Shown here piece after piece: positions 1,345 through 37,510 of a DNA stretch of 64,000 nt. The number at the start of each line of letters is the position of its first letter. The first letter of the stretch is position 1. The stretch is from NCBI GenBank assembly GCA_035283785.1, contig DATETG010000005.1, forward strand, positions 2,902-66,901, read 5' to 3'. A program made the translations under genes and the position numbers. Below the pieces are notes generated by a model. That model saw only the letters and a list, made by a program, of their open reading frames with translations, did no database searches and was not told the DNA's origin. The DNA is from Candidatus Nanoarchaeia archaeon (GTDB lineage Archaea; Nanobdellota; Nanobdellia; Pacearchaeales; GW2011-AR1).

Positions 1345-4026
1345 ATGGCTGATGAATTTTCGTTTGATATAAAAAAGATTATTTCATTTTTTAATGAAAA
1401 AAAGATTTTTAATGCAATAATCATCATCCTGTTCCTAGCCCTTCTTATCGGAAGCTCGTGGATGCGGTTTCAAAATATGGATCTCCTAAAAGATGTGACC
1501 AATGGAGAACCAATTCCGATAGAGCTAGATACTTTTTATTTCCTAAGAATGGCTGAAACAATAATTGAACAGGGGGCGTTACCAGAATTTGACAATATGA
1601 GATATGTTCCTGCAAAAATTGAATTTTCAAAAGAGATAACTCCTGATGTTCTTGTTTTTATGTACAGGGTTTCAAACGTGTTCGGAGATTACAGCTTACG
1701 ATATCTGGACTTGATCTATCCTGTGATTTTTTTTGCCTTAGGATTGATAGCATTCTTTTTCCTTATTTATGCCTTGACAAATTCAAAAATAACTGCTCTG
1801 CTAAGCAGCGCATTTCTGGCAATTGCACCGACATACCTTTATAGAACCATCTCAGGTTTTTCTGATCACGATGCCATAGGAATGGCTGCCTTTTTTTCAG
1901 CTATGCTCTTTTACACAATAAGCCTAAAGTCAATCGAAAAAAATAAATTCGAGATTAAAAAAACCGTATTACTCGGAATTGGTGCCGGAGCCTTGACTGC
2001 AATTACAATTGTTTCATGGGGAGGAATTGCAAACTACTTATTCATGATTTTTTCCCTAGCACTAATAATAATCTGGTTGATAAAAACAAAGAATATAGAA
2101 GAAATACATGAACTAAAAAGTTATTTGTACTTTTACCCTGCTTGGATTTTCTCAGGTGTTCTGTTCACATCTTTATTTGGCTATGAAGCCATAAGTGTCA
2201 TAAAAAGATATATCTTATCTACAAGTGGCATTATCAGCTTGTTTGTTCTTGGATTTATCATAATTGATTATATCCTCATCCATTTCAGGAATAAAAACGC
2301 GTTCATAAGAAAAAATGAAAAGTATAGGGTGATAATCAGCTTAGTTGCTACAATTTCTTTAGGAATAATCTTCCTTTCTTTAGTAGGAAGGAATCCATTT
2401 GATTTTATTTCTATTCTATTTGGGAGATTTATAGAACCTCTAGGTGTTGGAAGAACAGGTTTGACAGTTGCCGAAAATGTTCAAACATCTTTGAGTGATT
2501 GGATAAGCCAGATAGGGAAAATTTTCTTTTGGTTATTTTATCTTGGAGTGGCAATTGTTGGCATTGAAGTTGCAAAAGGCATTGAAAAAAGAAAAAACAA
2601 GATACTATTTTTCGTTTTTTGGATGATAATGATCTCGGGGATTCTGTTGAGCAAAATTTCTGGAGGTTCCATACTAAACGGATCTAATCTAATAAGCAAT
2701 TTGTTTTACATGGGAGGCATACTTCTATTTTTTGGTTATTGTGTATGGATGTATTTTAATGATAACATGAAAATAAAACCTGAAATGGCTATCCTTGTTT
2801 CTTGGCTTTTTTTCATGCTAATATCAGCGAGAGGAGCGATAAGACTTTTCTTTTCAGCGATGCCTTTCGTGGCATTCATGGGGGTTTTTAGCGTCGTTAA
2901 GATTTTTGATTATTGGAAAAAAACAAAAGATGATCTTCTGAAAGTTGTCTTTGTTGTTTTGCTCATTTTATCGCTTGTGGGGTTGATGATTAGTGCACAG
3001 TTATTTGTCAATTCTTCAAACGAGCAGACGAAATTTAGCGGACCGACAGTAACACCTCAGTGGCAAAAAGCGATGTTTTGGTTAAGAGAAAACACTCCTG
3101 AAAGATCAATCATTGTTCACTGGTGGGATTATGGGTACTGGGTACAATATCTCGGAGAGAGGCCAACTGTCACCGACGGAGGACATGGTGTTGGTTATTG
3201 GGATCACCTGATTGGAAGATATCTTCTAACAACACCTAATCCGGACGCTGCCTTGAGTTTCATGAAAACACAAAATGTTTCATATTTGATAATAGATCAA
3301 ACGGATCTCGGGAAATATCCTGCTTATAGCAAAATAGGAAGCGACCCTGGTGGAAACGACAGATATTCTCAAATTCCTGTGATGACATTAAATCCAAGCC
3401 AGACACAAGAGACAGCCGAAGGCATTTTAAGAGTATATGAAGGTGGGACTCTTGTTGATGAAGACATTTTTTACCAAGATATATTCCTCCCTTCGGGAAA
3501 TGCGATAATAGCAGCGGTTGTGCTTGAAGAATCCGCCTCAGGATTCAAGACTTTTTCACAACCTTATGGAGTATTCCTGTACAACCAAAAACAGATAAAC
3601 CTTCCAATAAGGTACATGTATTATGAAAATCAACTGATTGATTTTGGAGGTGGTTTGAATGCAACAATAAGAATAATTCCAAAAATTGACCAATCATCAA
3701 GTCAGAACATCAATGTAGACAAATCTGGCGCTGCAATATACCTATCACCAAAAGTCTCAAAAAGCCTTTTTGCCCAACTTTACATTCTCGATGATGCATT
3801 TGAGAATTATGGAACAGTGAGCCTGGTTCATTCAGAGGATGATCTTTTGGTTTCCACGCTTAATTCTCAAGGAGCAGATGTTGGTGACTTTGTTTATTTC
3901 CAGGGATTTAGAGGACCAATAAAAATATGGAAGATAGATTATCCTTCAAACATCGTGCCGAGAGAGGAATTTCTAAGAACTTCCGGAGAATACGCAGAGT
4001 TTGACAACCTGAAATTTACCAAGTAG
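1345..4026 (+). CDS. aglB: Archaeal oligosaccharyltransferase AglB (STT3 family)
   Basis: 893 aa with an N-terminal multi-TM domain. The WWDYGYW catalytic motif is present (HWWDYGYWVQY) and a large soluble C-terminal domain follows. Confidence 0.9.
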   Translation: MADEFSFDIKKIISFFNEKKIFNAIIIILFLALLIGSSWMRFQNMDLLKDVTNGEPIPIELDTFYFLRMAETIIEQGALPEFDNMRYVPAKIEFSKEITPDVLVFMYRVSNVFGDYSLRYLDLIYPVIFFALGLIAFFFLIYALTNSKITALLSSAFLAIAPTYLYRTISGFSDHDAIGMAAFFSAMLFYTISLKSIEKNKFEIKKTVLLGIGAGALTAITIVSWGGIANYLFMIFSLALIIIWLIKTKNIEEIHELKSYLYFYPAWIFSGVLFTSLFGYEAISVIKRYILSTSGIISLFVLGFIIIDYILIHFRNKNAFIRKNEKYRVIISLVATISLGIIFLSLVGRNPFDFISILFGRFIEPLGVGRTGLTVAENVQTSLSDWISQIGKIFFWLFYLGVAIVGIEVAKGIEKRKNKILFFVFWMIMISGILLSKISGGSILNGSNLISNLFYMGGILLFFGYCVWMYFNDNMKIKPEMAILVSWLFFMLISARGAIRLFFSAMPFVAFMGVFSVVKIFDYWKKTKDDLLKVVFVVLLILSLVGLMISAQLFVNSSNEQTKFSGPTVTPQWQKAMFWLRENTPERSIIVHWWDYGYWVQYLGERPTVTDGGHGVGYWDHLIGRYLLTTPNPDAALSFMKTQNVSYLIIDQTDLGKYPAYSKIGSDPGGNDRYSQIPVMTLNPSQTQETAEGILRVYEGGTLVDEDIFYQDIFLPSGNAIIAAVVLEESASGFKTFSQPYGVFLYNQKQINLPIRYMYYENQLIDFGGGLNATIRIIPKIDQSSSQNINVDKSGAAIYLSPKVSKSLFAQLYILDDAFENYGTVSLVHSEDDLLVSTLNSQGADVGDFVYFQGFRGPIKIWKIDYPSNIVPREEFLRTSGEYAEFDNLKFTK

Positions 4027-4030
4027 GACT

Positions 4031-5194
4031 GTGCTCCATAAGGTTTATGAATCTTTTTTTTCAAGGATTAAAATGAAAAAAGTTGCAATAATCATCGGAA
4101 CTAGGGCAGAATTCATTAAAACAATGCCGATAATGCTTGAATTGAAAAAAAGAAAAATTCCTTACTCTTTTATCCACACTGGACAACATAGTCTGAAAGA
4201 TTTGTGTGAAAAATTTGAAATCAAAAAACCCGACTTTGTTTTGACGCCCGCACCAAGTAAAAGCACCAAATTTTTTGCCCGCCATATTCGTGCTGCTTTT
4301 TGGAATTTAGGACTAATATTTTCCATAAAAAGAGTCATCAAAAAGATAAATCCGGACTATGTCATCTATCATGGAGATACTATGACAACAGCCTCTGCAT
4401 CGATAGCATCTTCTAAGATGTTGAACCCGTCTAAAAAATATAAAAATATCCACTTGGAAGCCGGATTGAGAAGCGGAAATTTGTTTGAGCCTTTCCCTGA
4501 AGAAATTTCCAGAATAATTGCAGACAGATTTTCCGAAGTTTTGTTTGCAGTTTCCGAGAGGAGCAAAAATAATCTAAGAAGATATAAAAAGTCTAAGAAG
4601 ATAATCCTCACCGGAAATACCATCATTGACTCTGTAGATGTTTCATACAAAAAAGCATTGAAAGAAAAAATAAAAGTGTTCTCAAATAAAAAGTTTGCAT
4701 TGATATCCATACATCGACACGAAAACATAAAAAATAAAAAACGCCTGGAAAAAATTGTTAAAATTTTGCTTTCATTAAACATACCTTCTTATTTTCCATT
4801 GTATGACAATACCAAGGAAAAATTGATAAAATTCGGGCTTTACAAGAAATTAATAGAGAACAAAAATATAACGATTCTGGAATACATAGACTATGTTAAT
4901 TTCATATATCAATTAAAAAACTGTTCTCTGCTTATTTGCGACGGAGGTTCCATTCAAGAAGAGAGTCTTGTGTTTGGAAAGCCATGTATAATACTCAGAA
5001 ATTTTACAGAAAGGCAGGAAGGATTGGAATCAAATTTTCAATTTTTGTCCAAGCTTAACGTGAAAAAAACAGTATACAAAATAAACGAATATCTATCCAA
5101 AGATTTTAAAGTTAAAAAATTCAAAAATCCCTATGGAAACATTGGATTAAGCGAAAAAATAGTTGATCTTATTCAAAATGATAAAAATTATTGA
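4031..5194 (+). CDS. wecB: UDP-N-acetylglucosamine 2-epimerase (non-hydrolysing)
   Basis: N-terminus VAIIIGTRAEFIKTMPIM...HTGQH is typical of UDP-GlcNAc 2-epimerases. Length 387 aa. Confidence 0.8.
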   Translation: MLHKVYESFFSRIKMKKVAIIIGTRAEFIKTMPIMLELKKRKIPYSFIHTGQHSLKDLCEKFEIKKPDFVLTPAPSKSTKFFARHIRAAFWNLGLIFSIKRVIKKINPDYVIYHGDTMTTASASIASSKMLNPSKKYKNIHLEAGLRSGNLFEPFPEEISRIIADRFSEVLFAVSERSKNNLRRYKKSKKIILTGNTIIDSVDVSYKKALKEKIKVFSNKKFALISIHRHENIKNKKRLEKIVKILLSLNIPSYFPLYDNTKEKLIKFGLYKKLIENKNITILEYIDYVNFIYQLKNCSLLICDGGSIQEESLVFGKPCIILRNFTERQEGLESNFQFLSKLNVKKTVYKINEYLSKDFKVKKFKNPYGNIGLSEKIVDLIQNDKNY

Positions 5195-6038
5195 ATCCCT
5201 TTCATGGATTCCCTATAAAACAGCGAAAATGTTTGGAAAACGTAAAAACGATTTTCTGATCTTGGATCTTGAGAAGATAGGAATAAAAAAGAGATTTAAG
5301 TTTAATACTACAAAAACAGACGAAGGTTTGTCATCACAATTAAAAACTTTTGGTTTTAGAGAACCTGTAAATCTGGAGTATTATCACAAATTCGTTGAAA
5401 AAAACGACAAGGTTCTCGATATAGGGGCGAACATAGGATTATTTACGATTTTGAGTGAAAATGCAAAAGAAATTATTTGTGTTGAACCGCTTAAACAGGC
5501 AATTCCTCTGCTTAAGAAAAATATAAATGACAACAATCTGATGGAAAAAACAAAAATAATAAACGCTGCTGTTGGTAAAAAAGGGAAATTGATAATATCC
5601 GTTGACGAGCAGCTGAATCTTTCAAGAATAGTCAGCAAGAAAACAAAAAATTCCTACGAAGTAAAAAGTATGGAATTAATGGATCTGACAAAAAGATATG
5701 ATTCAAATCTTTTAAGAATGGACGTAGAAGGATATGAGTATGAAATACTATTTGAGAAACTACCTAAAAGAATAAACAAAATATCTATCGAATTTCACAC
5801 ATTGCTTCTTGGAAAAGAAAAAGTTTCCAAGCTCTTGAATTATCTTGAAAAAGAAGGCTTTAAGCTGAAATATTTTATAGAGGATCTCCCGATAAGGCTT
5901 TATCCTTTTTTCAATATTTTAAAGAAGTTTGGCTTTTTAAGAAGATTTACCTACGTAAAAAGAAACATTTCAATAAATGAATGTTCAAAAATTATCGGCA
6001 AGGGGAGGGCAGTAAAATACTTGTTTCTTCAGAGATAG
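5163..6038 (+). CDS. FkbM-family SAM-dependent methyltransferase
   Basis: LDIGANIGLFT motif characteristic of the FkbM methyltransferase family. Confidence 0.7.
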   Translation: MILFKMIKIIESLSWIPYKTAKMFGKRKNDFLILDLEKIGIKKRFKFNTTKTDEGLSSQLKTFGFREPVNLEYYHKFVEKNDKVLDIGANIGLFTILSENAKEIICVEPLKQAIPLLKKNINDNNLMEKTKIINAAVGKKGKLIISVDEQLNLSRIVSKKTKNSYEVKSMELMDLTKRYDSNLLRMDVEGYEYEILFEKLPKRINKISIEFHTLLLGKEKVSKLLNYLEKEGFKLKYFIEDLPIRLYPFFNILKKFGFLRRFTYVKRNISINECSKIIGKGRAVKYLFLQR

Positions 6039-6072: not shown

Positions 6073-7212
6073 ATGAATAAAAAGAAAAAGACAATAAGAA
6101 TTGACTTCAGGTATTACTGGTGGCATTTCAATCCGGAAAACAACATTTTTACAAATCTTCTAAAAAAAGACTACAATGTGATAATAGACAAAGAAAATCC
6201 AGATTATGTGTTTTTTTCGGTATACACTCCAACGAGACCAATTCACAAACATGAAAGTTTAGGAAAGAAAATTGAGAATTTTTCTCCTACAGTTTATAAG
6301 ATTCTTAGAGAGATTTATTATTTCAAAAAGGAAAGGTGGAAAATGCCTTCGATAAAGGGTAATTTCGTAAAAATTTTCTTTACAGTTGAGAATGCAAAAC
6401 CAAACATGAAAGAATGCGACTGGGCGTTCACTCATGAATACGACGAAGAATTGCAAAATCCCGGGCATATGAGAATTCCCGGATATGCATTTAACTCCAT
6501 AAAAAATCCTGAAGAATTGATAAAGCCGAAAAACCTTGACGTTAAAAAAATAATGAGTGGGAAGAAAAAATTCTGCGTCTTCATATGTTCAAACAATGTA
6601 ACATTTAGGAACAGTTTTTTCAAAAAGCTCAACAAATCCAAGAAGGTAGAATCGTGGGGGAAGGTTTTGAACAACATGGGGAGAGGCATTCCAAAAGTAG
6701 TGGAAATCAATAAGGACAAAAAATCAAAGGGTGAAACCAAAGAGTATGTTGCAAGAGACTTCCTCGCCCAATACAAATTCACAATTGCTTTTGAAAATGC
6801 GTCTCATGTAGGATACACCTCTGAAAGAAAAGTTGAGCCAATGAGGATCTACAACATTCCTATCTACTGGGGGAATCCTCTTGTGTACAGGGACTTTAAC
6901 ACAAAAAGTTTCATAAATTATCATGACTTTGAAAAACAAGTCAGAAAAAAACTGCCAAACTTTTTCTTTAAGATACCACTAATAAATTTCTTGTCGGAAA
7001 AATATGTTGAAGAGATGACTTTCAGAAAAATGATTAAAAGAATAATTGAACTAGACAACAATGATGAGTTATACATGGAAATGTTAAAACAGCCTTGGTA
7101 TAATGATAATGAGCCGCCAATTTATCTTGATAGGGAAAGAATCAGAAAAAGGCTCAGAGAGATAATTGAATCTGGAAAGAAGAATTCTAATATAAAAAAT
7201 GAAAGAAGATGA
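6073..7212 (+). CDS. GT10-family alpha-1,3/4-fucosyltransferase-like glycosyltransferase
   Basis: Contains YKFTIAFENASHVGYTSERK, which matches the GT10 alpha-1,3-FucT signature FxxAFENS...GYxTEK. Confidence 0.6.
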   Translation: MNKKKKTIRIDFRYYWWHFNPENNIFTNLLKKDYNVIIDKENPDYVFFSVYTPTRPIHKHESLGKKIENFSPTVYKILREIYYFKKERWKMPSIKGNFVKIFFTVENAKPNMKECDWAFTHEYDEELQNPGHMRIPGYAFNSIKNPEELIKPKNLDVKKIMSGKKKFCVFICSNNVTFRNSFFKKLNKSKKVESWGKVLNNMGRGIPKVVEINKDKKSKGETKEYVARDFLAQYKFTIAFENASHVGYTSERKVEPMRIYNIPIYWGNPLVYRDFNTKSFINYHDFEKQVRKKLPNFFFKIPLINFLSEKYVEEMTFRKMIKRIIELDNNDELYMEMLKQPWYNDNEPPIYLDRERIRKRLREIIESGKKNSNIKNERR

Positions 7213-7387
7213 AGTTCTAATAAGATTTTTCTATGTGGACGAGGAATTTAATAAAATAAATAGAAAAGAGGAACTTCCTATGGAAGCGTTGAAAATAGAA
7301 CTTGACAGAATAAAATCTGAAGAAAAATCTTTAAGCAGAGAAGAAATAGAAAAAAGTTACAAGATCTTGACTGGGTTAGTAGACTAA
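7199..7387 (+). CDS. small charged hypothetical protein (possible antitoxin partner)
   Basis: 62-aa ORF rich in coiled-coil/charged residues, upstream of a RelE/ParE-like small ORF. Confidence 0.2.
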   Translation: MKEDEVLIRFFYVDEEFNKINRKEELPMEALKIELDRIKSEEKSLSREEIEKSYKILTGLVD

Positions 7388-7491
7388 AGGGACTTTCTTG
7401 CAAAAAACAAGAAGTAGATGTTAATGTACTGTGCATTGATACCCATCATAGTGGAAGTCTTTTTCATGAAACAACGGTTAAACAAGGAGAG

Positions 7492-7719
7492 TTGCATGTA
7501 GATATAGTAAAAAAAGGTGAAGATGCTAAAACAGAGTCTTTATTAAAAATTTCTGATTTTAAGGGGTTTATATCAAACTTACCTCCTGCTGTAAGAAAAA
7601 GAGCTAATTTTTTTGAAGTCTTGTGGGGAAATCATAGAGTCTTCGCCACTATAAAAAGAAATGATAAAAATTTGATGGTTTTACTTGTCTGTGACAATGA
7701 TCCTCAATCAATAACATGA
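7492..7719 (+). CDS. small protein with weak RelE/ParE-toxin-like features
   Basis: 75 aa. F..I..LPPAVRKR segment and HRVFATIK...LMVLLVCDN resemble the RelE/ParE fold pattern. The similarity is weak. Confidence 0.25.
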   Translation: MHVDIVKKGEDAKTESLLKISDFKGFISNLPPAVRKRANFFEVLWGNHRVFATIKRNDKNLMVLLVCDNDPQSIT

Positions 7720-8936
7720 GGTTCTGGAACAGGGATTATTATTTTTCCCCTGAAACCTTTTTGCCTTAGTTTTGGCACTATCACACTCTTTAAGTTCCAA
7801 GCCAAAAGCAATGCATATGTCGGTTGTGGTTCCTGAAAGAGAATTGATTCGTCCTTAATGGGAATGTGCATTCCCGGAGAGTACATTCCTACTTTCAAAC
7901 TTCCATATTCTAGCAAACAGTCAATTGTCTCTTTTCCTATTTTACAAAAATTTAATAGCGTATTCCCCTTTGCCGGAGCGCCAATCCCGACGATATTCCC
8001 ATGTTCTTTTGCTTTAAACAAGATTGAACGAATTTCCTTCATGTTGGAAAAAACCTTTTTCCCAAATGAATCATAAATTTTTCTCGAGTAAAGCCCAAAT
8101 TCTTCTTCTTCAATCAGAATTTTTTTCACGTTTTCAGATATGGGAAAATCTCCCTTTCCGCATGCATAAACTCTCAATGAACCGCCGTGAGTGGTAATCT
8201 TTTCCGCATCGAAAACATCCATATCAAACTTATCAAACAAGTAGATTAATGGTTTAAGAGAGTAATATCTCAAGTGTTCAGCGTAAATAGAATCGTACTC
8301 TGTTTCATGTAAAAGGTCTCTTATGTAGTGTGATTCTTCTATGAAAACACCTTTGGCATCTAAAAGAATTTTTATTCCATTCATAAAGGAATCCAATTCC
8401 CTAACATGAGCAAAAACGTTTGTTGCAGTTATTACTTTTGCTTTTCCATTTTCTCTGAGAATTCTAATTGCAGTTTTCTCGTTGAAAAAGTCTTTCATTG
8501 TTGGAACATTCTTTTTTTGCGCCATTTCGGCTGCTTTCGAAGGATCAACATTAAGTACTTTTATTCCATAAGGAAGATAATTTGAAAGCGATGTTCCGTC
8601 ATTACCTCCGATATCAACAGCAAAATCATTCCTCAACAGATTAAACTTTTTTATGACATTTTCTACCAGGGAATGAAAATTGTCCGCCAGTTCTTTACTT
8701 GAGCCAGTAGTATAAACAAAATCTTCCGTAAACAACAATTCTGGATTTGGGGCGTATCCCAACTGCACTAAGCAACAATCTTCACAAAAATAAACATCAA
8801 GGGGAAAATATATCTCAGGTTCTTTTAATTTTTCTTCTGTCAGAAATCCGTCAGGATTTGGGTGATGCCCTAATGATAAAAATTTATGCATCCTCTCGGA
8901 AGAGCAAATTTGGCATGTTAATTTTTCAGATTTCAT
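7704..8936 (-). CDS. NDP-hexose C-methyltransferase-like protein (TylCIII/NovU type: N-terminal Zn ribbon plus class I SAM MTase)
   Basis: CQIC...CEDCCLVQL zinc-ribbon N-terminus and DIGGNDGT SAM-binding motif. The start is set at the internal ATG at 8934-8936 (MKSEKLTCQIC). Confidence 0.7.
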   Translation of the reverse strand: MKSEKLTCQICSSERMHKFLSLGHHPNPDGFLTEEKLKEPEIYFPLDVYFCEDCCLVQLGYAPNPELLFTEDFVYTTGSSKELADNFHSLVENVIKKFNLLRNDFAVDIGGNDGTSLSNYLPYGIKVLNVDPSKAAEMAQKKNVPTMKDFFNEKTAIRILRENGKAKVITATNVFAHVRELDSFMNGIKILLDAKGVFIEESHYIRDLLHETEYDSIYAEHLRYYSLKPLIYLFDKFDMDVFDAEKITTHGGSLRVYACGKGDFPISENVKKILIEEEEFGLYSRKIYDSFGKKVFSNMKEIRSILFKAKEHGNIVGIGAPAKGNTLLNFCKIGKETIDCLLEYGSLKVGMYSPGMHIPIKDESILFQEPQPTYALLLAWNLKSVIVPKLRQKGFRGKIIIPVPEPHVID

Positions 8937-9086
8937 GGTCTTTGTTCCCCTTATAATTTCTTTTGGATTCTCGAAATAATCATGCACCCTGTTTTTCAGG
9001 CCAAGAAATGAAGTTGACAAATTTTCAGACATAAAAATCAATAAAAAACCTGATTTTTAAGTTTTGTGCAATTAACTCACCACAAA

Positions 9087-9096
9087 GTTTATATAA
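9087..9096 (+). promoter_or_regulatory. TATA-like box (tttatataag) about 25 nt upstream of the ATG at 9117; likely promoter of a leaderless transcript
   Basis: AT-rich TATA consensus at archaeal spacing from the start codon. Confidence 0.35.
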
Positions 9097-9116: not shown

Positions 9117-10100
9117 ATGCCGAAAACACTCATAACAGGGGGGGCAGGATTCATAGGTTTCCACTTAGCAAAACGATTGGCAGAACAAAAACACGAAGTT
9201 GTTATAGCAGATAATTTTTTTAGGAGTCAAAAGGAAGGAGATTTATTGGCATTGCTTGAGAGGCCAAACGTAAAAATGATTGAAGCTGACCTAACAGATA
9301 AGGTCTCTTGGGATAAATTAGGTACAGGGTATGATCATGTATATCACCTTGTTGGAATTAACGGAACAAAACTTTTCTATAAAATTCCGCACGAGGTTCT
9401 TAGAATTGGAGTGTCCACAACGATGAATGTACTTGAATGGTTTCACACCAAAAATAATGTGCCTCATGCAAAAATTCTTTACACATCCTCCAATGAAGCA
9501 TACGCAAGCGCTCTTGAAGCATTCGGGAAATTGCCAATACCCACGCCAGAAAATGTTCCGTTAGTTATCGCCGATACATACAATGCCCGATGGTCATATG
9601 GTGGGCAAAAATTAATAGGGGAACTTTTTTTTATTCATTATAGCAAGGCACATAATTTTCGAATGTCGATAGTAAGACCGCACAACTTTTACGGGCCTCG
9701 TGCGGGCTTTGACCATGTTATCCCTGAAATTACAAAGAGAATTGTTGAAAAAGTTGAACCATTCTCTATTTTTGGGGCTGATGAAACCCGCTCGTTTTGC
9801 TATATTGACGACGCAGTTGAAGCGATTCAAAGAGTTATGGAATCAGATAAAACCGACGGAGGAACTTATCACATAGGTACATCGCAAGAAACAGTTATCA
9901 AAGACCTTGTTGAAGAGATGTTTAATATCATGAAATGGCGTCCTCGAAATATTGAAGTTAAAAATTCTCCTGAAGGAAGTGTAAAGAGACGACTACCCGA
10001 TGTCTCAAAAATAAAGAGAGATACTGGCTGGGAAGCTAAAACAGACTTGAGAGAAGGTCTCGAAAAAACAATTGATTGGTATAAGAATAAGTTTAGTTAA
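9117..10100 (+). CDS. NAD-dependent nucleotide-sugar epimerase/dehydratase (extended SDR)
   Basis: LITGGAGFIGFHLAKRL Rossmann motif and YxxxK-type catalytic region. Start taken at MPKTLITGG. Confidence 0.8.
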   Translation: MPKTLITGGAGFIGFHLAKRLAEQKHEVVIADNFFRSQKEGDLLALLERPNVKMIEADLTDKVSWDKLGTGYDHVYHLVGINGTKLFYKIPHEVLRIGVSTTMNVLEWFHTKNNVPHAKILYTSSNEAYASALEAFGKLPIPTPENVPLVIADTYNARWSYGGQKLIGELFFIHYSKAHNFRMSIVRPHNFYGPRAGFDHVIPEITKRIVEKVEPFSIFGADETRSFCYIDDAVEAIQRVMESDKTDGGTYHIGTSQETVIKDLVEEMFNIMKWRPRNIEVKNSPEGSVKRRLPDVSKIKRDTGWEAKTDLREGLEKTIDWYKNKFS

Positions 10101-11206
10101 AAATCATCATAAATTTTCAGAATGGGCTCCAATAAATCATCTGCTTCTTTGTAAGTAAATGGTTTAAATGAATAATCAAGTTCTAAACTTACAGGAAGAT
10201 TTCTTCTCTGAGATTCCTTAAGAACATCGACGAATCTTTCTTTTGGAATTAATCCCTGCAAAGTTTTTCCACCACCCCAATGTTGAGCAGGTTCTGAATT
10301 TGCAGGTAATCTAACACCTATTCCTTCTACTTGAGAAATGTGAACTGCGCGTGCTTGAGCCATATACTCTTCTTGCATTCCAACTCTTTTTTCGTATTCA
10401 TCCCACGAAGAAATTCCCATTGTGGCAAACAAATTATCAGGAGAGAAATTATTTCTGCTGAATGCATTAGGGATTTCTTCCATTGCAACCAAATGGGCCA
10501 GATCAAGAACCAAGTTTCCTCGAGAAATTTTACTTAGATTAGGCAAATCATTAAGAACTTCGTAATGCATTTTGTATTTGTCCATGTCTTCTGTTCTATT
10601 GCCTGTTTGCCAAAAACTTGAGTCCTGCACTACAGCAAGATAAGCATTTTCTATGGCAAGAGTCAATCCTTTTTGAATTCCCAATTCCTGAAGTCCTGCG
10701 AATCTTGATTCTGCAGTATCTATTATTTTGTCTCTCATTTTTACAAAATCAGGAACAGAATAAAATCCAGGTATTGAAAAATCTCCTTCCTTCAAATCAT
10801 GAGGTACTATTACTCCTACATGTGGTGCCACAACCAAATTTTCCCGTGGATTTGGATCTAAATCCCTTAATCTTGCAACGTGATCTATTGTTCTTCCCAA
10901 ATCAGAGGGTTTCTCTGAATTGTAAGTAGGATCAGAAGGAACATATGCTAAAGAGTTGTTTCTTTGAATGCATGTTTCAACGAGTCGTATTGGAATTCCA
11001 TATTTGCGCTCGTTTTCCAACTGCTTCTCAAAATTTTCCGACTTTATTGAATGTCCGGGAAGAAATGGTAAGAATGCGCCAACTTCAGTAGGAACTCCGT
11101 AAGAATCACTCAAGATTTCAATTCTGTCTTTTGCTTCTAAGAAAGCCTCAATTTCTTTATCAAAGTGGAGCATCAGTGGAAGTGCTATTTGCAATAGTTT
11201 TGTCAT
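10097..11206 (-). CDS. xylose-isomerase-like TIM-barrel sugar(-phosphate) isomerase/epimerase family protein (tentative)
   Basis: LAIENAYL and LDLAHLV motifs resemble metal-binding segments of AP-endonuclease-2/xylose-isomerase-like TIM barrels. Codon usage is noticeably GC-richer than its neighbours. Confidence 0.4.
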   Translation of the reverse strand: MTKLLQIALPLMLHFDKEIEAFLEAKDRIEILSDSYGVPTEVGAFLPFLPGHSIKSENFEKQLENERKYGIPIRLVETCIQRNNSLAYVPSDPTYNSEKPSDLGRTIDHVARLRDLDPNPRENLVVAPHVGVIVPHDLKEGDFSIPGFYSVPDFVKMRDKIIDTAESRFAGLQELGIQKGLTLAIENAYLAVVQDSSFWQTGNRTEDMDKYKMHYEVLNDLPNLSKISRGNLVLDLAHLVAMEEIPNAFSRNNFSPDNLFATMGISSWDEYEKRVGMQEEYMAQARAVHISQVEGIGVRLPANSEPAQHWGGGKTLQGLIPKERFVDVLKESQRRNLPVSLELDYSFKPFTYKEADDLLEPILKIYDDF

Positions 11207-11230: not shown

Positions 11231-11992
11231 TTAAAGATTGTGCAATCCTTTTTCATGTTTTAATTTCTCCCACAAACTCACGTCCATTGATGAATCTCTT
11301 GGCAATTCAAAGGGCAGAGAATCCTTAATGTCATCAAGTTTTACGGGTTTCAAATCCCTGATGTACTTTTTGTACAGATTGTAATTTGAAATTTTTTTGT
11401 TTCCGACATTTATTGTTCCAACGAAATCACTTTCAAAAAGGATTTTAATTGCATCAACCAAATCTGAAACATTCATCTTCGAAGTGTAAACATCTTCGGG
11501 AACTTCGGAAAAATTTAATTTATCAGGATTAAAAAAACTAGTTCTTATTATGCAAAAATTTTTCAATAATCTTACAGAACTCTCTGCTGCAAGTTTTGTC
11601 CATCCGTAAGGATTCATGGGAATTGTTGGAGAGTTTTCCGAGTAGTTTCCCTCTGCCCTGCTATAAACGCCGTCAGTAGATATGTGAATAAATCTTATTT
11701 TTTTTCCTTGTTCTGATTCTTTCTTCAAAACTTCATTTACCAGATTAGAAGTCCCAATAACATTTGTATTTATGGCTTTTGTTATTTCCTCCTCTGAATT
11801 CCCGACGCGAACAATGGCTGCACAGTGTATGACTGTCTCAAAATCATTGTTTTGGAAAAAATTTCTCACGGAATCTTTATTAGCAATATCCATTTCTTTA
11901 TGACTTGGTGTTAGAATATTCTGGAATTTCCCGGATTTTACAATTGCGCTACCAAGGTTTCCCGAGCTCCCTGTGATAAGGATATTTTTCAT
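11231..11992 (-). CDS. short NAD(P)-binding reductase/epimerase (RmlD-like dTDP-4-dehydrorhamnose reductase family)
   Basis: N-terminal ILITGSSGNLGSAI Rossmann motif. About 250 aa, typical of RmlD-like reductases. Confidence 0.55.
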   Translation of the reverse strand: MKNILITGSSGNLGSAIVKSGKFQNILTPSHKEMDIANKDSVRNFFQNNDFETVIHCAAIVRVGNSEEEITKAINTNVIGTSNLVNEVLKKESEQGKKIRFIHISTDGVYSRAEGNYSENSPTIPMNPYGWTKLAAESSVRLLKNFCIIRTSFFNPDKLNFSEVPEDVYTSKMNVSDLVDAIKILFESDFVGTINVGNKKISNYNLYKKYIRDLKPVKLDDIKDSLPFELPRDSSMDVSLWEKLKHEKGLHNL

Positions 11993-13247
11993 CTTTGTAT
12001 TCACCAATTGAATGTTCTTTCTTTTCTGATTGCAAATCCTTGTTTTTATCTTTTTTCAATATTCCCCACAGATCAACAACATCAATATCTCCAGAAATTT
12101 GCAATTCTTTATAGGCAGAATGAGGAGCCCCGACAATTATGATATCGCTGTTTTTTATCAATTCTTCCTTTGATACAAATCGCGGATCTTTTGCAAATTC
12201 GTCGGAACAAAAAACTTCTGCTCCATGAAACTTAAGGAGCTTTCTTAATTTGAATGAAAGCGAGTCCCTTATATCATCAACTTCTGCCTTAAAAGCCATT
12301 CCCAAGATTCCAACTTTCTTTTTGTTTAAATCGTGTTTTTTCTTCAGGCTCTCTACAATCGTGTTTGGCAGTCCTTCATTTATTATCATCGCTGCGTTAC
12401 CTAATGGAAAATTAGCGTTATCAAAAGCAACCAAATGCATTGTGTCTTTCAACAAACAAGGACCTGCCGAGAAACCTGCACTTGCGAGCGTGCCTGCCCT
12501 GTCATAACCCTCAATTAATGCTTTTCTTATTCTTTCATAATCAAGACCCAGTTTTGTTGCGAGAGTATAAAACTGGTTTGCTACTGAAAATTGAATGTAT
12601 CTAAAAGAATTTGAAAAAAGCTTTATCAATTCCGCCTCTTCAACAATAGTTTCAACAATCTTTGGAGAAACAACGGAAAAAAGTTCTATGGCATCTTTAA
12701 TTGCTTTTTCGCTGAAACCGGAAACTATCTGGGGTAACTCAAGAAGCTCCTTAATGCCATATCCTTGAGCCAATCTTTCGGGACAGTAAGCAACATGAAT
12801 TGGATTCTCTCCAGCGGTCCAACCAAAATTTTTCAACATCTGCCGACAAACACCCGGATAAACAGTGCTTCTTATTATTAATGTCTGACCAGAGTCCAAA
12901 TACTCTGAGATTTCTGAAATTGAGTCCATAAACTTTCTAACTTGCGGATTCATGTATTCATCAATTTCTGTTCCAAGAGTGATTATCACATTTCTTGCGT
13001 ATGAAATGTCTCTCTTATCAAATGATATTTTTAATTTTTTTTTCTCTAGAACATCCTTCAAGATTGGCTCTGCCCCATGTTCTACAAAGGGCATTATCCC
13101 GTTCAATACAAGTTTTGCCTTATTTTCATCGATATCAAACAGACAAACTTCCAATCCCTTTTGAGCAAACACAATTCCTAATGGCAAACCTACATGCCCT
13201 AATCCACCTACAATCAATACATCAAACTTTCTTTCTCTATCTTCCAT
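11949..13247 (-). CDS. wecC: nucleotide-sugar 6-dehydrogenase (UDP-ManNAc/UDP-Glc dehydrogenase family, WecC-like)
   Basis: FDVLIVGGLGHVGLPLG NAD-binding N-terminus. Central and C-terminal UDPG/MGDP dehydrogenase domains. Start set at the internal Met (MEDRERKFDV). Confidence 0.8.
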   Translation of the reverse strand: MEDRERKFDVLIVGGLGHVGLPLGIVFAQKGLEVCLFDIDENKAKLVLNGIMPFVEHGAEPILKDVLEKKKLKISFDKRDISYARNVIITLGTEIDEYMNPQVRKFMDSISEISEYLDSGQTLIIRSTVYPGVCRQMLKNFGWTAGENPIHVAYCPERLAQGYGIKELLELPQIVSGFSEKAIKDAIELFSVVSPKIVETIVEEAELIKLFSNSFRYIQFSVANQFYTLATKLGLDYERIRKALIEGYDRAGTLASAGFSAGPCLLKDTMHLVAFDNANFPLGNAAMIINEGLPNTIVESLKKKHDLNKKKVGILGMAFKAEVDDIRDSLSFKLRKLLKFHGAEVFCSDEFAKDPRFVSKEELIKNSDIIIVGAPHSAYKELQISGDIDVVDLWGILKKDKNKDLQSEKKEHSIGEYKDEKYPYHRELGKPW

Positions 13248-17799: not shown

Positions 17800-19047
17800 T
17801 TAATTTTTGCTTATCACTTTAAATGCAGGCAAAGGAACAATAAACTTAACCCCTCTCTCAAAAAGTCCATTTTCCTGTTTTTTTATTTCCTCGAAAAAAT
17901 GCCAAGTCATAACCAGCAGATAATCGGGATTTTTCTCCCTCATCTTCTCTGGAGAAACTATCGGAATCATGCTTCCAACTGTTTTCTTACCGTGCTTATC
18001 TGAATTTTTATCAGCAATGCAATCAACCAATTTTGCATCTAAATCGAAATACTGCAAGATTACATTACCTCTTGTAGAAGCTCCGTAAATGCAAATCTTT
18101 TTGCCGTTTTTCTTTTCATCCTTCAAAAAACCCACCAGGTCTTTCTTTATACCGTTTATTCTTAAGGCAAATTCGATGTATGGTTTTAATGTGTTTAAAC
18201 CCATCGCACTCTCTTTTCTTTCTATTTCACCAAATCTTTTTTCAAAATTTTTGAAAGGCCTTACATCCGCATTGTCCTGGAATTTAATGTAGGTCCTTAT
18301 GCTACCCCCGTTTATGTCATTAAGTTCCACATCAAAAATCTCTAAACCATATTTCTCTATAAGAGGTTTTAACGAGGTTAAAGAGTAATACTCTCTGTGT
18401 TCATGGCAGATGTTGTCAAAAGCGTTTTGTTCTAGCATTGACACCAGATAATTCTGCTGAATTACGAAAATTCCTTTTTTTTCCAAACATTCAACTATGT
18501 CTTTAACAAAATTATTTGGGTCTTCAAGATCGTAAAACATTGATATTGCAGTTATTATTTTTGCCTTTTTTCCTTGAAATTTTTCCTTGAAATTTTTTGC
18601 ATTAAAAAAGTTGTTTATTACGTTGAATCCTTTTGATGATGCCTCTCTGGCGACATTTTCAGATGGTTCAAATCCCACCAATTCTATTTCTTTGTTCTGA
18701 TAAAAACTCAGCAATGTTCCGTCATTGCATCCGATGTCCACAACAATATCTCCTTTATTCAACTTAACCAATTTTTCAGATTTTTGAACAATATCTTTTA
18801 AGTCCTCTTTTATTGTTGTGCTTATTCCCGATTTGTACCAATATTGTTTGCCCCACATTTTTTCAGGAGGAGCATTGTGCTTTAATTGCAATAATTTACA
18901 GTTCTGGCACAAGACTATCTCGAGAGGTATTTTTTCTTCCTTTTCATCAAACGAATCTACAAAATTGCTTATATACTGGTTACCTAGAGAGAGAATATCT
19001 GTTAAATTTTTATTATTACAAACTCTGCAATTTTTTATTTCAAACAT
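17800..19047 (-). CDS. NDP-hexose C-methyltransferase-like protein, paralog of 7704..8936
   Basis: CRVCNN...CQNCKLLQL zinc ribbon and VDIGCNDGT SAM motif. Start set at MFEIKNCRVC (ATG at 19045-19047). Confidence 0.7.
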   Translation of the reverse strand: MFEIKNCRVCNNKNLTDILSLGNQYISNFVDSFDEKEEKIPLEIVLCQNCKLLQLKHNAPPEKMWGKQYWYKSGISTTIKEDLKDIVQKSEKLVKLNKGDIVVDIGCNDGTLLSFYQNKEIELVGFEPSENVAREASSKGFNVINNFFNAKNFKEKFQGKKAKIITAISMFYDLEDPNNFVKDIVECLEKKGIFVIQQNYLVSMLEQNAFDNICHEHREYYSLTSLKPLIEKYGLEIFDVELNDINGGSIRTYIKFQDNADVRPFKNFEKRFGEIERKESAMGLNTLKPYIEFALRINGIKKDLVGFLKDEKKNGKKICIYGASTRGNVILQYFDLDAKLVDCIADKNSDKHGKKTVGSMIPIVSPEKMREKNPDYLLVMTWHFFEEIKKQENGLFERGVKFIVPLPAFKVISKN

Positions 19048-19048
19048 C

Positions 19049-19486
19049 TTATTTAAATATATTATTAATCCCGTCAAATGCAAGAATCGATTTTGGGAAT
19101 TTTTTCTTTAATTCTTCTTTTCTTACTAAAAGATTGCCTCCAAGCATGTTACCAACAATTCTTTGGAATATCCTTGAATTTCCTTCCTCTTGAACGTTGT
19201 GAAAAAAACAAAAATGCTTCTTTTCAAAAACTCTCTCGGGGATTAAAAGTGGAAAGGCCATGCTCCAATCTTGAGTGTATATTACATCATAGTTTTTTTC
19301 CTTGTCTCTCCTTTTTATCGCTTCCTTCAAAGTACCCATTGAACCTGACAATGAGTCAATGCCTAAGTCATCCTCTCTCGACAAAAGATCCACATTGTGT
19401 CCTTTTTCTTCAAGTTTTTGCTTTACACTCCTAACGATATCCCATGACTCTTCCTTCTTTTTCCTGAAAACAATAAGTATTTTCAT
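19049..19486 (-). pseudogene. truncated glycosyltransferase fragment: the N-terminal ~145 aa of a paralog of 24724..25626
   Basis: Aligns collinearly with residues 1-150 of the 300-aa protein at 24724..25626 (GHNVDLLSREDD / GHKVDFLSREDD; DWSMAFPLLIPERVFEKKHFCFFH / DWSFAFPLLFPKRIFKKNHICCFCGH). Its stop codon lies 1 nt from the C-MTase start. Confidence 0.6.
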
Positions 19487-30581: not shown

Positions 30582-30625
30582 TTTATTTTTCCATTAGCCC
30601 CATATATAAGCATTTGTGTTTTTGA

Positions 30626-37082: not shown

Positions 37083-37166
37083 AGCAGGAGTAGCGAAGTG
37101 GTCAAACGCGCGGGACTCAAGATCCCGTCCTTTAGTAGGTTCAGAGGTTCGAATCCTCTCTCCTGC
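37083..37166 (+). tRNA. tRNA-Leu (anticodon CAA), class II with long variable arm
   Basis: Acceptor GCAGGAG/CUCCUGC, anticodon stem CGGGA/UCCCG with loop CUCAAGA, long variable arm, T-arm AGAGG-UUCGAAU-CCUCU. Confidence 0.8.
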
Positions 37167-37169
37167 ATT

Positions 37170-37261: not shown

Positions 37262-37359
37262 GCTCATAATAAAGATAGGATTTCTAATCAGTTTAAAGAA
37301 ATTCGGATAGGAAAGTTTGCAAGAAAACTTCGTGTTCTTGCAAATCCTGTCTGGCGCTT

Positions 37360-37391: not shown

Positions 37392-37510
<119 letters not shown>

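What the first reader, a model, noticed from the sequence alone, without database searches (positions are those of the whole stretch)
7704..8936. First of two NDP-hexose C-methyltransferase-like genes (TylCIII/NovU type)
The protein has an N-terminal zinc-ribbon CxxC...CxxC, a class I SAM fold, and a C-terminal extension. This architecture is typical of enzymes that C-methylate NDP-4-keto-6-deoxyhexoses to make branched-chain sugars in antibiotic pathways. Branched-chain deoxysugars in an archaeal surface glycan would be novel chemistry. The gene is flanked by dehydratase/epimerase/reductase genes, as expected for such a pathway.
Basis: partly seen in the sequence, partly recalled or inferred. 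Interest (0 to 1): 0.5.

Follow-up and report, generated by a model that had tools for sequence, protein, structure and literature searches.

The report
Archaeal sugar C-methyltransferase gene, TylC3/TcaB9 type
This gene in an uncultivated DPANN archaeon encodes an intact member of the enzyme family that adds a carbon-bound methyl branch to activated keto-sugars; it sits in the cell's protein-glycosylation gene island, so it predicts, but does not prove, a branched sugar on an archaeal surface.

Summary
Window 7704-8936 (-) encodes a protein with the Pfam domains Methyltransf_13 (four-Cys zinc domain), a class I SAM domain and Methyltransf_14. It matches the solved sugar C-3-methyltransferases MtmC, KijD1 and TcaB9 over its full length (E 1e-56 to 1e-64). 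An AlphaFold model (pLDDT 94) superposes on them at TM 0.92-0.95.

Four of the five TcaB9 residues probed by published point mutants are conserved. Tyr76 is naturally Phe, which marks the DPANN clade this gene belongs to.

A conserved N-terminal extension suggests the true start is ATG 9032 (442 aa).

The contig is archaeal: it carries AglB, PolD and Rpb3.

Closest orthologues share a module: a short RmlD-like reductase, a convergent GT10 fucosyltransferase-like gene, and either GDP-mannose 4,6-dehydratase or, as here, a UXS-like SDR.

The most likely role is SAM-dependent C-methylation of an NDP-4-keto sugar, probably a GDP-linked 6-deoxyhexose, for the N-glycan. The methylated carbon (C3 or C5), the nucleotide and the sugar are inferred, not shown.

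The enzyme kind is well known and the family is large (2,935 clusters at E<=1e-30). It is a new member of a known kind, of moderate interest.

The parts
7704..9032 (-). C-methyltransferase gene (CMT1), 442 aa from ATG 9032. The stop codon is at 7704-7706.
   Evidence: ORF; translation; the public gene call of 442 aa is 100% identical to P0001.
8937..9032 (-). 32-residue N-terminal extension (MSENLSTSFLGLKNRVHDYFENPKEIIRGTKT). It is absent from TcaB9, KijD1 and MtmC, and its function is unknown.
   Evidence: The motif LSTSFxGLKxRV is conserved in P0002, P0003 and P0013.
8730..8915 (-). Zinc-binding domain (Methyltransf_13), residues 8-69. The Cys ligands are C8 (8913-8915), C11 (8904-8906), C51 (8784-8786) and C54 (8775-8777).
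   Evidence: Pfam E 5e-19. The Cys align with the four Cys of TcaB9 (sequence-derived numbering 13, 16, 54, 57) and are invariant in alignment A1. Codons checked.
8718..8720 (-). Phe73 codon (TTT). It aligns with TcaB9 Tyr76, the residue changed in PDB entry 4e31 (Y76F). Phe here marks the clade.
   Evidence: Comparison of 4e31 with 3ndi in the printed alignments. Clade split F 58 / Y 61 among 119 close homologues. F occurs in only 4 of 150 family representatives. The PDB title names the Y76F mutant.
8217..8618 (-). Class I SAM-binding Rossmann domain, residues 107-240, with motif I D108-I-G-G-N-D-G114. It also holds the residues matching TcaB9 His181 (H177, 8406-8408), Tyr222 (Y218, 8283-8285), Glu224 (E220, 8277-8279) and His225 (H221, 8274-8276).
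   Evidence: Pfam Methyltransf_23/12/11; residue mapping; invariant or near-invariant in A1; the His225 equivalent is present in 150 of 150 representatives.
7725..8192 (-). C-terminal domain (Methyltransf_14), residues 249-404. From my recollection of the TcaB9 work, this is the main NDP-sugar-binding domain.
   Evidence: Pfam E 6e-40, profile positions 2-160 of 160. The model superposes over about 408 columns on KijD1/TcaB9.
9117..10100 (+). Divergently transcribed extended SDR (327 aa). It is the candidate generator of the NDP-4-keto sugar, either as a 4,6-dehydratase or as a UXS-like 4-oxidase/decarboxylase.
   Evidence: Pfam Epimerase/GDP_Man_Dehyd. NCBIfam best hits are LegB and dTDP-glucose dehydratase, below cut-off. 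PDB best hits are 8vr2 and human UXS1. Orthologues sit next to C-MTs in L002, L024, L026, L027 and L028. Motifs.
11231..11992 (-). Short RmlD-like SDR (253 aa), the candidate 4-ketoreductase of the pathway.
   Evidence: Pfam RmlD_sub_bind. PDB best hits are dTDP-4-dehydrorhamnose reductases. Orthologues score 307-383 bits in L028, L029 and L030, beside the orthologous C-MT.
6073..7212 (+). GT10 (alpha-1,3-fucosyltransferase-like) glycosyltransferase, convergent with CMT1. It is the candidate transferase for the modified 6-deoxyhexose.
   Evidence: Pfam FucT_N and Glyco_transf_10. It matches H. pylori FucT 2nzw at 1e-19 with the FEN...Y(T/V)(S/T)E(K/R) stretch aligned. Orthologues score 523-678 bits and lie convergent to the C-MT in L001, L022, L023, L028 and L029.
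1345..4026 (+). AglB/STT3 oligosaccharyltransferase. Together with a GT4 gene (298-1305), it places the island in N-glycosylation.
   Evidence: Pfam STT3, STT3-PglB_core and AglB_core-like. The order GT4-AglB-2-epimerase-FkbM-GT10-CMT is the same in L028.
17800..19083 (-). Paralogue CMT2 (about 425 aa), a distant clade 29% identical to CMT1. At the TcaB9 His181 and Tyr222 positions it has Asp and Cys.
   Evidence: phmmer E 1e-53; Pfam; PDB; residues; tree.

Best explanation
CMT1 is a zinc-containing, SAM-dependent nucleotide-sugar C-methyltransferase of the TylC3/TcaB9/KijD1/MtmC family.

Inferred mechanism, by analogy with that family. An NDP-4-keto sugar binds between the Rossmann and C-terminal domains. 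A base (His221, equivalent to TcaB9 His225, helped by Glu220) removes the proton alpha to the 4-keto group. The enolate is stabilised by Tyr218 and His177 and attacks the methyl of SAM. The product is a C-methyl-branched 4-keto sugar.

Inferred pathway in this DPANN archaeon. The 4-keto sugar is made by a neighbouring SDR: either 9117-10100, or the nucleotidyltransferase 19488-20195 together with the dehydratase-like SDR 21439-22503. After methylation, the short RmlD-like reductase (11231-11992) reduces the 4-keto group. The GT10 fucosyltransferase-like enzyme (6073-7212) then adds the sugar to a glycan that AglB transfers to protein.

[quoted passage not shown] The substrate is therefore most likely a GDP-linked 4-keto-6-deoxyhexose, methylated most likely at C-3.

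Shown: family membership, fold, conserved catalytic residues, conserved gene neighbourhood. Inferred: activity, nucleotide, sugar, regiochemistry and the glycan destination.
For: - Three-domain Pfam architecture with strong scores.
- Full-length matches only to MtmC (2.7e-64), KijD1 (2.3e-58) and TcaB9 (4.5e-56) in the PDB.
- AlphaFold2 model with pLDDT 94.0 and pTM 0.90. It superposes on KijD1, TcaB9 and MtmC at TM 0.92-0.95 and rmsd 1.7-2.1 A over about 408 columns. The next hits match only the Rossmann core, at TM about 0.3.
- The four Zn cysteines and the equivalents of TcaB9 H181, Y222, E224 and H225 are conserved. The PDB entry titles name exactly these residues plus Y76 as the mutated ones. 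The H225 equivalent is present in 150 of 150 family representatives.
- Among the eight loci whose C-MT is at least 67% identical to the target (window included): a convergent GT10 in 6 of 8; Gmd in 6 of 8; the short RmlD-like reductase in the window, L028, L029 and L030 at 307-383 bits.
- The SDR upstream of the C-MT in L022 carries Gmd motifs (ASSSEMFG, FNHESPRRG) (read against my knowledge of Gmd).
- GT10 aligns with the H. pylori GDP-fucose-dependent FucT.
- The nucleotidyltransferase at 19488-20195 is closest to mannose-1-phosphate guanylyltransferases and HddC.
- AglB and GT4 lie in the same island, and the contig is archaeal.
- A GDP-mannose to Gmd to TylCIII-like methyltransferase route has been proposed in silico for Coxiella virenose (PMC3539893).
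Against: - No biochemical data exist for this protein or any close relative.
- No NCBIfam model matches.
- Tyr76, one of the five residues probed in TcaB9, is Phe here. This state occurs in only 4 of 150 family representatives.
- No Gmd is encoded in the 64-kb window. The SDR next to the gene resembles UDP-xylose synthase about as much as it resembles dehydratases, so the substrate could be something else.
- All solved relatives use dTDP-linked 2-deoxy sugars. Transfer of C-3 regiochemistry to this enzyme is by analogy only.
- The link to the N-glycan rests on gene proximity alone.
Confidence: 0.8

Rival explanations
1. Same enzyme family, but it methylates C-5 rather than C-3, as NovU does. 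The product would be a 5-C-methyl (gem-dimethyl) 6-deoxyhexose, a noviose-like sugar.
For: Orthologous loci L025, L029 and L030 hold a gene set that parallels the noviose pathway as I recall it (NovT/W/U/S/P/N): a 4,6-dehydratase (Gmd), a ~137-aa cupin-like protein, the C-MT, an RmlD-like reductase, a TylF-family O-methyltransferase and a Carbam_trans carbamoyltransferase. The natural Tyr76-to-Phe change shows that the sugar pocket differs from that of the solved C-3 enzymes.
Against: Four of the five active-site residues are identical to the C-3 enzymes. No NovU-type sequence was available for comparison. The window itself lacks the cupin near the gene, the TylF-type methyltransferase and the carbamoyltransferase.
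Confidence: 0.2
2. The substrate is an NDP-4-keto-pentose, not a 6-deoxyhexose. The nucleotide-sugar dehydrogenase (11949-13247) would make a uronic acid. The UXS-like SDR (9117-10100) would oxidise and decarboxylate it. CMT1 would then methylate the 4-keto-pentose. Methylation at C-3 gives a branched pentose; methylation at C-5 builds a 6-deoxyhexose.
For: A dehydrogenase, a ~322-aa SDR and a C-MT recur together. In L002 and L024 they form one tightly packed operon, dehydrogenase-SDR-CMT-aldo/keto reductase. In L026, L027, L028 and the window they lie within a few genes of each other. No UDP-GlcNAc 2-epimerase gene is listed near L024, L026 or L027. After 8vr2, the SDR's best PDB matches are human UDP-xylose synthase entries. 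It shares the UXS-type stretches NxYGPR(M/A) and TR(S/A)F, where the window's dehydratase-like SDR and Gmd have RD(Y/W).
Against: NCBIfam scores the SDR higher against LegB and dTDP-glucose 4,6-dehydratase (122 and 121 bits) than against UDP-4-keto-pentose/UDP-xylose synthase (80 bits). GalE and WbmF score almost as well as UXS in the PDB search. The window's dehydrogenase is closest to UDP-ManNAc dehydrogenases, and a UDP-GlcNAc 2-epimerase is present, so it may simply make ManNAcA. In the tree, the window's C-MT nests among Gmd-linked orthologues. I know of no precedent for C-methylation of a 4-keto-pentose.
Confidence: 0.12
3. It is bifunctional like MtmC: a C-methyltransferase with SAM bound and a 4-ketoreductase with NADPH bound.
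For: MtmC is the best PDB sequence match. Its dual activity is described in PMC10269268. Some Gmd-type loci (L022, L023, L025) show no dedicated short reductase in the operon.
Against: Identity to MtmC is only 30%. A conserved RmlD-like reductase accompanies the gene in the window, L028, L029 and L030, so a second activity is not needed here. Sequence features that predict NADPH use could not be tested.
Confidence: 0.07
4. It is not a sugar C-methyltransferase: a diverged family member acting on another substrate, or an inactive paralogue.
For: NCBIfam has no model for it. Public annotations say only 'class I SAM-dependent methyltransferase' or 'hypothetical protein'. Tyr76 is replaced.
Against: All three domains, the Zn site, the SAM motif and four of five catalytic residues are intact and conserved across the clade. 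The gene lies among nucleotide-sugar genes in every locus examined. Sequence conservation of 60-75% identity across phylum-level DPANN groups argues for selection on function.
Confidence: 0.04

Closest known systems
TcaB9 (Micromonospora chalcea) and KijD1 (Actinomadura kijaniata), dTDP-sugar C-3'-methyltransferases with solved structures (3ndi, 4e2w-4e33, 5t64/67/6b)
   Same: The same three domains. Full-length alignment at 30-31% identity, E about 1e-56 to 1e-58. Predicted fold TM 0.93-0.95 and rmsd 1.7 A. Four Zn cysteines and the His181/Tyr222/Glu224/His225 equivalents are conserved.
   Different: Tyr76 is Phe. There is an extra 32-residue N-terminus. The organism is archaeal and the setting is a glycosylation island, not an antibiotic cluster. 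No 2,3-dehydratase or aminotransferase lies nearby, so the substrate is not a 2-deoxy-3-amino sugar. The nucleotide is probably not dTDP.
MtmC (Streptomyces argillaceus), bifunctional D-mycarose 3-C-methyltransferase / 4-ketoreductase (4rv9)
   Same: It is the best PDB sequence match (2.7e-64, residues 6-409). The catalytic pentad matches except for Tyr76.
   Different: Identity is 30%. Whether CMT1 also reduces the sugar is untested. A separate RmlD-like reductase is conserved next to CMT1 orthologues.
TylCIII / EryBIII / AviG1 and Coxiella burnetii CBU_0691, in the proposed GDP-virenose route for LPS
   Same: The same enzyme family. The Coxiella proposal (GDP-mannose, then Gmd, then 3-C-methylation, for a cell-surface glycan; PMC3539893) has the same logic as the Gmd-CMT operons of CMT1's closest orthologues.
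   Different: The Coxiella route is itself only an in-silico proposal. In this window Gmd is replaced by a different SDR.
NovU/CloU/CouU, C-5 methyltransferases of the noviose pathway (from my own knowledge; not compared here)
   Same: The family and the accompanying toolkit (dehydratase, cupin, RmlD-like reductase, TylF-type O-methyltransferase, carbamoyltransferase) resemble what is found in orthologous loci L025, L029 and L030.
   Different: Most of that toolkit is missing from this window. Regiochemistry was not tested. NovU uses dTDP sugars.

Membership tests
TylC3/TcaB9-type NDP-sugar C-methyltransferases | N-terminal four-cysteine zinc domain (Pfam PF08421) | tested here: met
   PF08421 E 5e-19. 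C8, C11, C51 and C54 align with the four Cys of TcaB9 and are invariant in 59 sequences.
TylC3/TcaB9-type NDP-sugar C-methyltransferases | Central class I SAM-binding Rossmann domain with glycine-rich motif I | tested here: met
   PF13489 E 1.6e-10, above its cut-off. The DIGGNDG motif has N112, D113 and G114 invariant.
TylC3/TcaB9-type NDP-sugar C-methyltransferases | C-terminal C-methyltransferase domain (Pfam PF08484) | tested here: met
   PF08484 E 6e-40, profile positions 2-160 of 160.
TylC3/TcaB9-type NDP-sugar C-methyltransferases | Whole-chain fold equal to the solved members | tested here: met
   Model pLDDT 94, pTM 0.90. Foldseek TM 0.92-0.95 to KijD1, TcaB9 and MtmC. All other PDB hits have TM of about 0.36 or less.
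TylC3/TcaB9-type NDP-sugar C-methyltransferases | Active-site residues equivalent to TcaB9 His181, Tyr222, Glu224 and His225 | tested here: met
   H177, Y218, E220 and H221. The pentad Y-H-Y-E-H is found in 126 of 150 family representatives.
TylC3/TcaB9-type NDP-sugar C-methyltransferases | Tyr at the TcaB9 Tyr76 position | tested here: not met
   Phe73 (TTT, 8718-8720). The same holds in all 58 closest homologues, and elsewhere in only 4 of 150 representatives. The family tolerates variation here (F or H in 8 of 150), so I do not treat this as disqualifying.
TylC3/TcaB9-type NDP-sugar C-methyltransferases | SAM-dependent methyl transfer to a carbon alpha to the 4-keto group of an NDP-sugar | not testable with these tools
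   Needs an enzyme assay with MS/NMR of the product.
TylC3/TcaB9-type NDP-sugar C-methyltransferases | Genomic association with enzymes that make and then reduce an NDP-4-keto sugar | tested here: met
   An SDR at 9117-10100 and an RmlD-like reductase at 11231-11992 in the window. Gmd or the same SDR type, plus the same reductase, in orthologous loci.
GDP-sugar route (Gmd + C-methyltransferase, as proposed for Coxiella virenose) | GDP-mannose 4,6-dehydratase encoded with the methyltransferase | tested here: inconclusive
   No Gmd within the 64-kb window. It is present beside the orthologue in 6 of the 8 closest loci. The rest of the genome was not visible.
NovU-type C-5 methyltransferases | Methylation at C-5 and sequence features specific to NovU/CloU/CouU | not tested
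The only evidence is the gene-set analogy in L025, L029 and L030.

The most novel reading that the evidence does not exclude
CMT1 and its DPANN relatives, which are paired with a nucleotide-sugar dehydrogenase and a UXS-like SDR, methylate an NDP-4-keto-pentose made by oxidative decarboxylation of a uronic acid. Methylation at C-3 would give a C-methyl-branched pentose. Methylation at C-5 would be a previously unknown way of building a 6-deoxyhexose, by adding the C-6 methyl from SAM. In either case the product would end up on an archaeal N-glycan.
Probability: 0.1. Interest if true: 0.75.

Novelty: new member of a known kind. Interest (0 to 1): 0.38.

Why it matters
No glycan structure is known for DPANN archaea, whose cell surfaces mediate attachment to their hosts. 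I also found no report of a C-methyl-branched sugar in any archaeal glycan. This gene, its paralogue and the conserved module (4-keto-sugar generator, C-methyltransferase, short reductase, GT10 transferase) give a concrete and testable prediction: these organisms decorate their glycoproteins with branched 6-deoxy sugars so far known only from antibiotics and a few bacterial lipopolysaccharides. The natural Tyr76-to-Phe clade linked to GDP-mannose dehydratase would extend a family characterised only on dTDP-2-deoxy sugars to other nucleotide sugars. The enzymology is well understood, so the value is in glycobiology and annotation rather than in a new mechanism.

Tried and rejected
- NCBIfam gave no hit for CMT1, and only sub-threshold hits for every neighbour. 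No neighbour could be named at equivalog level.
- I tried to read the TcaB9 and KijD1 papers by DOI and by guessed PMC ids. None is held. The role of Tyr76 and the effect of the Y76F mutation therefore could not be checked, and I used only the PDB sequences and titles.
- Classifying the SDR at 9117-10100 as a dehydratase or a decarboxylase was inconclusive. NCBIfam favours LegB/RmlB-type enzymes. The PDB search favours 8vr2 and UXS, with GalE and WbmF close behind. The motifs are mixed. A literature search for 8VR2 found nothing relevant.
- I looked for Gmd, a TylF-type O-methyltransferase, the ~137-aa cupin, NUDIX, CTP_transf_like, a sulfotransferase, DegT and a carbamoyltransferase in the window, using the orthologous loci's proteins as queries. 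None was found.
- An apparent loss of GT10 and the SDR in contig L019 turned out to be scaffold gaps (200 N), not a deletion.
- Pfam at E<=1 found nothing convincing for the small ORFs at 7199-7387 and 7492-7719, for the 369-aa protein at 10097-11206, or for the 145-aa protein at 19049-19486.
- Rfam found no RNA element near the gene.
- Recent horizontal acquisition is not suggested. GC content of 0.34-0.36 around the gene is the same as in the rest of the window.
Full report
**The observation.** Pfam finds exactly the predicted architecture:
- Methyltransf_13 (zinc domain), residues 8-69, E 5e-19
- a class I SAM domain (Methyltransf_23), residues 107-240
- Methyltransf_14 ('C-methyltransferase C-terminal domain'), residues 249-404, E 6e-40, covering the whole profile

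The two CxxC pairs are C8/C11 and C51/C54. NCBIfam has no model for either protein.

One correction concerns the start. The 32 residues upstream (MSENLSTSFLGLKNRV...) are conserved in the nearest orthologues P0002, P0003 and P0013. The gene is therefore most likely 7704-9032 (442 aa), as in the public gene calls.

**Family membership.** The only full-length matches among solved structures are MtmC (4rv9, 2.7e-64), KijD1 (5t64, 2.3e-58) and TcaB9 (3ndi, 4.5e-56). An AlphaFold2 model built on 59 homologues has pLDDT 94 and pTM 0.90. Foldseek places it on KijD1, TcaB9 and MtmC at TM 0.92-0.95 and rmsd 1.7-2.1 A over about 408 columns. Every other PDB hit matches only the Rossmann core, at TM of about 0.36 or less.

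The titles of the TcaB9 entries name the residues the crystallographers mutated: Y76F, H181N, Y222F, E224Q and H225N. In my alignment CMT1 keeps the four Zn cysteines and the equivalents of H181, Y222, E224 and H225 (H177, Y218, E220, H221). At the Tyr76 position it has Phe73. I located that position by comparing the 4e31 (Y76F) and wild-type sequences in the printed alignments.

Among the 119 closest database homologues, the 58 that are roughly 60% or more identical to CMT1 (plus one at 53%) have Phe, and the other 61 have Tyr. Across 150 representatives of 50%-identity clusters, the pentad Y-H-Y-E-H occurs in 126. Phe at the first position occurs in only 4, and the His225 equivalent is present in all 150.

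CMT1 therefore meets the structural and catalytic criteria of the family except for one variable residue, and that residue defines its clade.

**Organism.**
- The window carries AglB/STT3.
- It carries both subunits of DNA polymerase D, Rpb3 and DUF655.
- It carries a 5S rRNA.
- Named homologues at 57-70% identity come from Woesearchaeota, Pacearchaeota, Nanoarchaeia and Micrarchaeota MAGs.

The window is thus from a DPANN archaeon. The identical public protein is labelled 'Candidatus Woesebacteria bacterium', which looks like a binning or labelling error. The same contig, at 99.8-99.99% identity, occurs in many metagenome assemblies. GC content around the gene equals that of the rest of the window.

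**Surroundings in the window.** The genes are, in order:
- GT4 (298-1305)
- AglB (1345-4026)
- UDP-GlcNAc 2-epimerase (4031-5194)
- FkbM-type methyltransferase (5163-6038)
- GT10 fucosyltransferase-like gene (6073-7212)
- two small ORFs
- CMT1, on the minus strand
- a divergent extended SDR (9117-10100)
- a 369-aa protein with no family (10097-11206)
- a short RmlD-like SDR (11231-11992)
- a nucleotide-sugar dehydrogenase closest to UDP-ManNAc dehydrogenases (11949-13247)
- GT1, a FemAB-like gene, a methyltransferase, a deacetylase and an RmlD-like reductase
- CMT2, a 145-aa ORF, and a nucleotidyltransferase closest to mannose-1-phosphate guanylyltransferases
- a dehydratase-like SDR (21439-22503)
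- more glycosyltransferases and a flippase

This is a protein-glycosylation island.

**Conserved partners.** I compared nine other loci that carry Phe-clade orthologues.
- L028 (75% identical, from a TARA ocean sample) is collinear with the window from GT4 and AglB through GT10, the C-MT, the SDR, the short reductase and the dehydrogenase.
- Six loci at 67-70% identity (L001, L022, L023, L025, L029, L030) instead have a GDP-mannose 4,6-dehydratase upstream. I identified it from the ASSSEMFG and FNHESPRRG stretches, read against my knowledge of Gmd.
- Those loci often also have a TylF/Methyltransf_24 O-methyltransferase, a ~137-aa cupin-like protein, a NUDIX protein and a CTP_transf_like protein. 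The last is fused to the C-MT in P0024 and P0025. Some loci add a sulfotransferase or a carbamoyltransferase.
- The window's GT10 has orthologues scoring 523-678 bits that lie convergent to the C-MT in L001, L022, L023, L028 and L029.
- The window's 253-aa reductase has orthologues scoring 307-383 bits in L028, L029 and L030.
- GT10 aligns with the H. pylori alpha-1,3-fucosyltransferase, including the FEN...TEK-type stretch.

The conserved core is therefore a 4-keto-sugar generator, the C-MT, a short 4-ketoreductase and a GT10 transferase. The Gmd and GT10 links point to a GDP-activated 6-deoxyhexose.

In an NJ tree the window and L028 pair nests inside the Gmd-linked group. That suggests Gmd was exchanged for the other SDR in this lineage.

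**The uncertain partner.** The SDR at 9117-10100 belongs to a ~322-aa type that also sits directly upstream of C-MTs in more distant relatives.
- L026 and L027 (62-64% identical, Phe clade) have SDR-CMT, with a dehydrogenase and a radical-SAM gene alongside.
- L002 and L024 (57-58% identical, Tyr clade) have a tightly packed operon: dehydrogenase, SDR, CMT, aldo/keto reductase.

The evidence on its function is mixed.
- Its best PDB matches are 8vr2 (no function given) and human UDP-xylose synthase, with GalE and WbmF close behind.
- NCBIfam scores it highest against LegB and dTDP-glucose 4,6-dehydratase, but below their cut-offs.
- It shares GPR(M/A) and TR(S/A)F stretches with UXS. The window's dehydratase-like SDR and Gmd have RD(Y/W) at the second of these positions.

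I could not decide whether it is a 4,6-dehydratase or a 4-oxidase/decarboxylase. The second possibility gives the most novel reading, C-methylation of a 4-keto-pentose. I put that at about 10%.

**Mechanism.** The mechanism is inferred by analogy with the family. The NDP-4-keto sugar is deprotonated alpha to the ketone by the His221/Glu220 pair. The enolate is stabilised by Tyr218 and His177, and the methyl of SAM is transferred to carbon. Reduction of the 4-keto group by the RmlD-like protein follows, and then glycosyl transfer by GT10.

C-3 is the default because all solved relatives are C-3 enzymes with the same four residues. C-5 (NovU-like) is a real alternative at about 20%, because orthologous loci hold a noviose-like toolkit. 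MtmC-like dual methyltransferase/ketoreductase activity (PMC10269268) cannot be excluded.

**Comparison and novelty.** The enzyme kind is well known from antibiotic deoxysugar pathways. It has also been proposed, in silico, for the GDP-virenose route in Coxiella LPS (PMC3539893). The family is large: 2,935 clusters at 50% identity match at E<=1e-30, and 6,373 of 8,000 scored candidates match at E<=1e-10. It is common in DPANN and CPR metagenomes, where it is annotated only generically.

I found no report of a C-methyl sugar in an archaeal glycan. Searches combining archaea with branched-chain sugar, 3-C-methyl or NDP-hexose C-methyltransferase returned nothing relevant. A 2024 review of archaeal N-glycans never uses 'C-methyl' (PMC11407970).

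The finding is a new, uncharacterised archaeal member of a known family. It has a distinctive Phe-clade signature and gene neighbourhood, and it predicts new glycan chemistry rather than demonstrating it.

**Verdict.**
- The novelty class is a new member of a known kind.
- The interest score is about 0.38.

Noticed in passing
window 17800-19083 (-), with 19049-19486, 19488-20195 and 16936-17799: The paralogue CMT2 has Asp and Cys where TcaB9 has His181 and Tyr222. A 744-aa protein in L001 has the same changes. CMT2 forms a distant clade, 29% identical to CMT1. It follows a guanylyltransferase-like nucleotidyltransferase and a 145-aa ORF, and converges on an RmlD-like reductase. The altered active site may mean different regiochemistry or a different substrate.
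   Followed up: partly
L002, L024, L027, L001 and the window: DPANN glycosylation loci repeatedly carry two C-methyltransferase paralogues within about 10 kb. This hints at two branched sugars or a doubly methylated one.
   Followed up: no
window 7213-7703: A ~490-bp stretch holding two small ORFs (7199-7387, 62 aa; 7492-7719, 75 aa, overlapping the 3' end of CMT1) separates GT10 from CMT1. In the syntenic locus L028 the two genes abut. Neither ORF has a Pfam match. In L026 a HicA-type toxin pair sits at the same position downstream of the C-MT.
   Followed up: partly
window 10097-11206 (-): A 369-aa soluble protein with no Pfam or NCBIfam match lies between the SDR and the short reductase, where L028 has a NUDIX gene. 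Its pattern of conserved E, D and H residues reminded me of xylose-isomerase-like TIM barrels. That is from reading only and was not tested.
   Followed up: no
L023 8001-9731 (P0025), also P0024; L025 and L030: In some orthologues a CTP_transf_like nucleotidyltransferase domain with an HxGH motif is fused to the N-terminus of the C-methyltransferase. In others it is a separate gene next to a NUDIX gene. Its role (a second activation step, or glycerol-phosphate addition) is unknown.
   Followed up: partly
L025, L029, L030: The Gmd-linked orthologous loci also carry a TylF-type O-methyltransferase, a ~137-aa cupin-like protein, an RmlD-like reductase and a NodU/NovN-type carbamoyltransferase. 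This set parallels the noviose pathway. L022 and L023 add PAPS synthesis genes and sulfotransferases. L029 carries a PEP-mutase phosphonate set.
   Followed up: partly
protein P0001 (identical to the window's CMT1): NCBI labels it 'TPA: hypothetical protein DIU22_05420 [Candidatus Woesebacteria bacterium]', although the contig encodes AglB and DNA polymerase D. This is probably a taxonomic mislabel.
   Followed up: partly
window 30141-33937 (-): A second sugar-nucleotide group: a 146-aa weak cupin, a classical SDR, a GatZ/KbaZ-like protein and a 535-aa protein with an N-terminal nucleotidyltransferase domain. Next to it is a 425-aa protein (28825-30102) with no family.
   Followed up: no
window 37171-37262 (+): Rfam reports a 92-nt tRNA here that ARAGORN did not list. 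It may be an intron-containing archaeal tRNA. It lies beside tRNA-Leu (37084-37167) and a 5S rRNA (37396-37510).
   Followed up: no
window 9088-9096 (-): A TTATATAAA box lies about 60 nt upstream of ATG 9032, in the 84-bp divergent intergenic region between CMT1 and the SDR. That is compatible with an archaeal TATA promoter for the longer reading frame. This rests on reading the sequence only.
   Followed up: no
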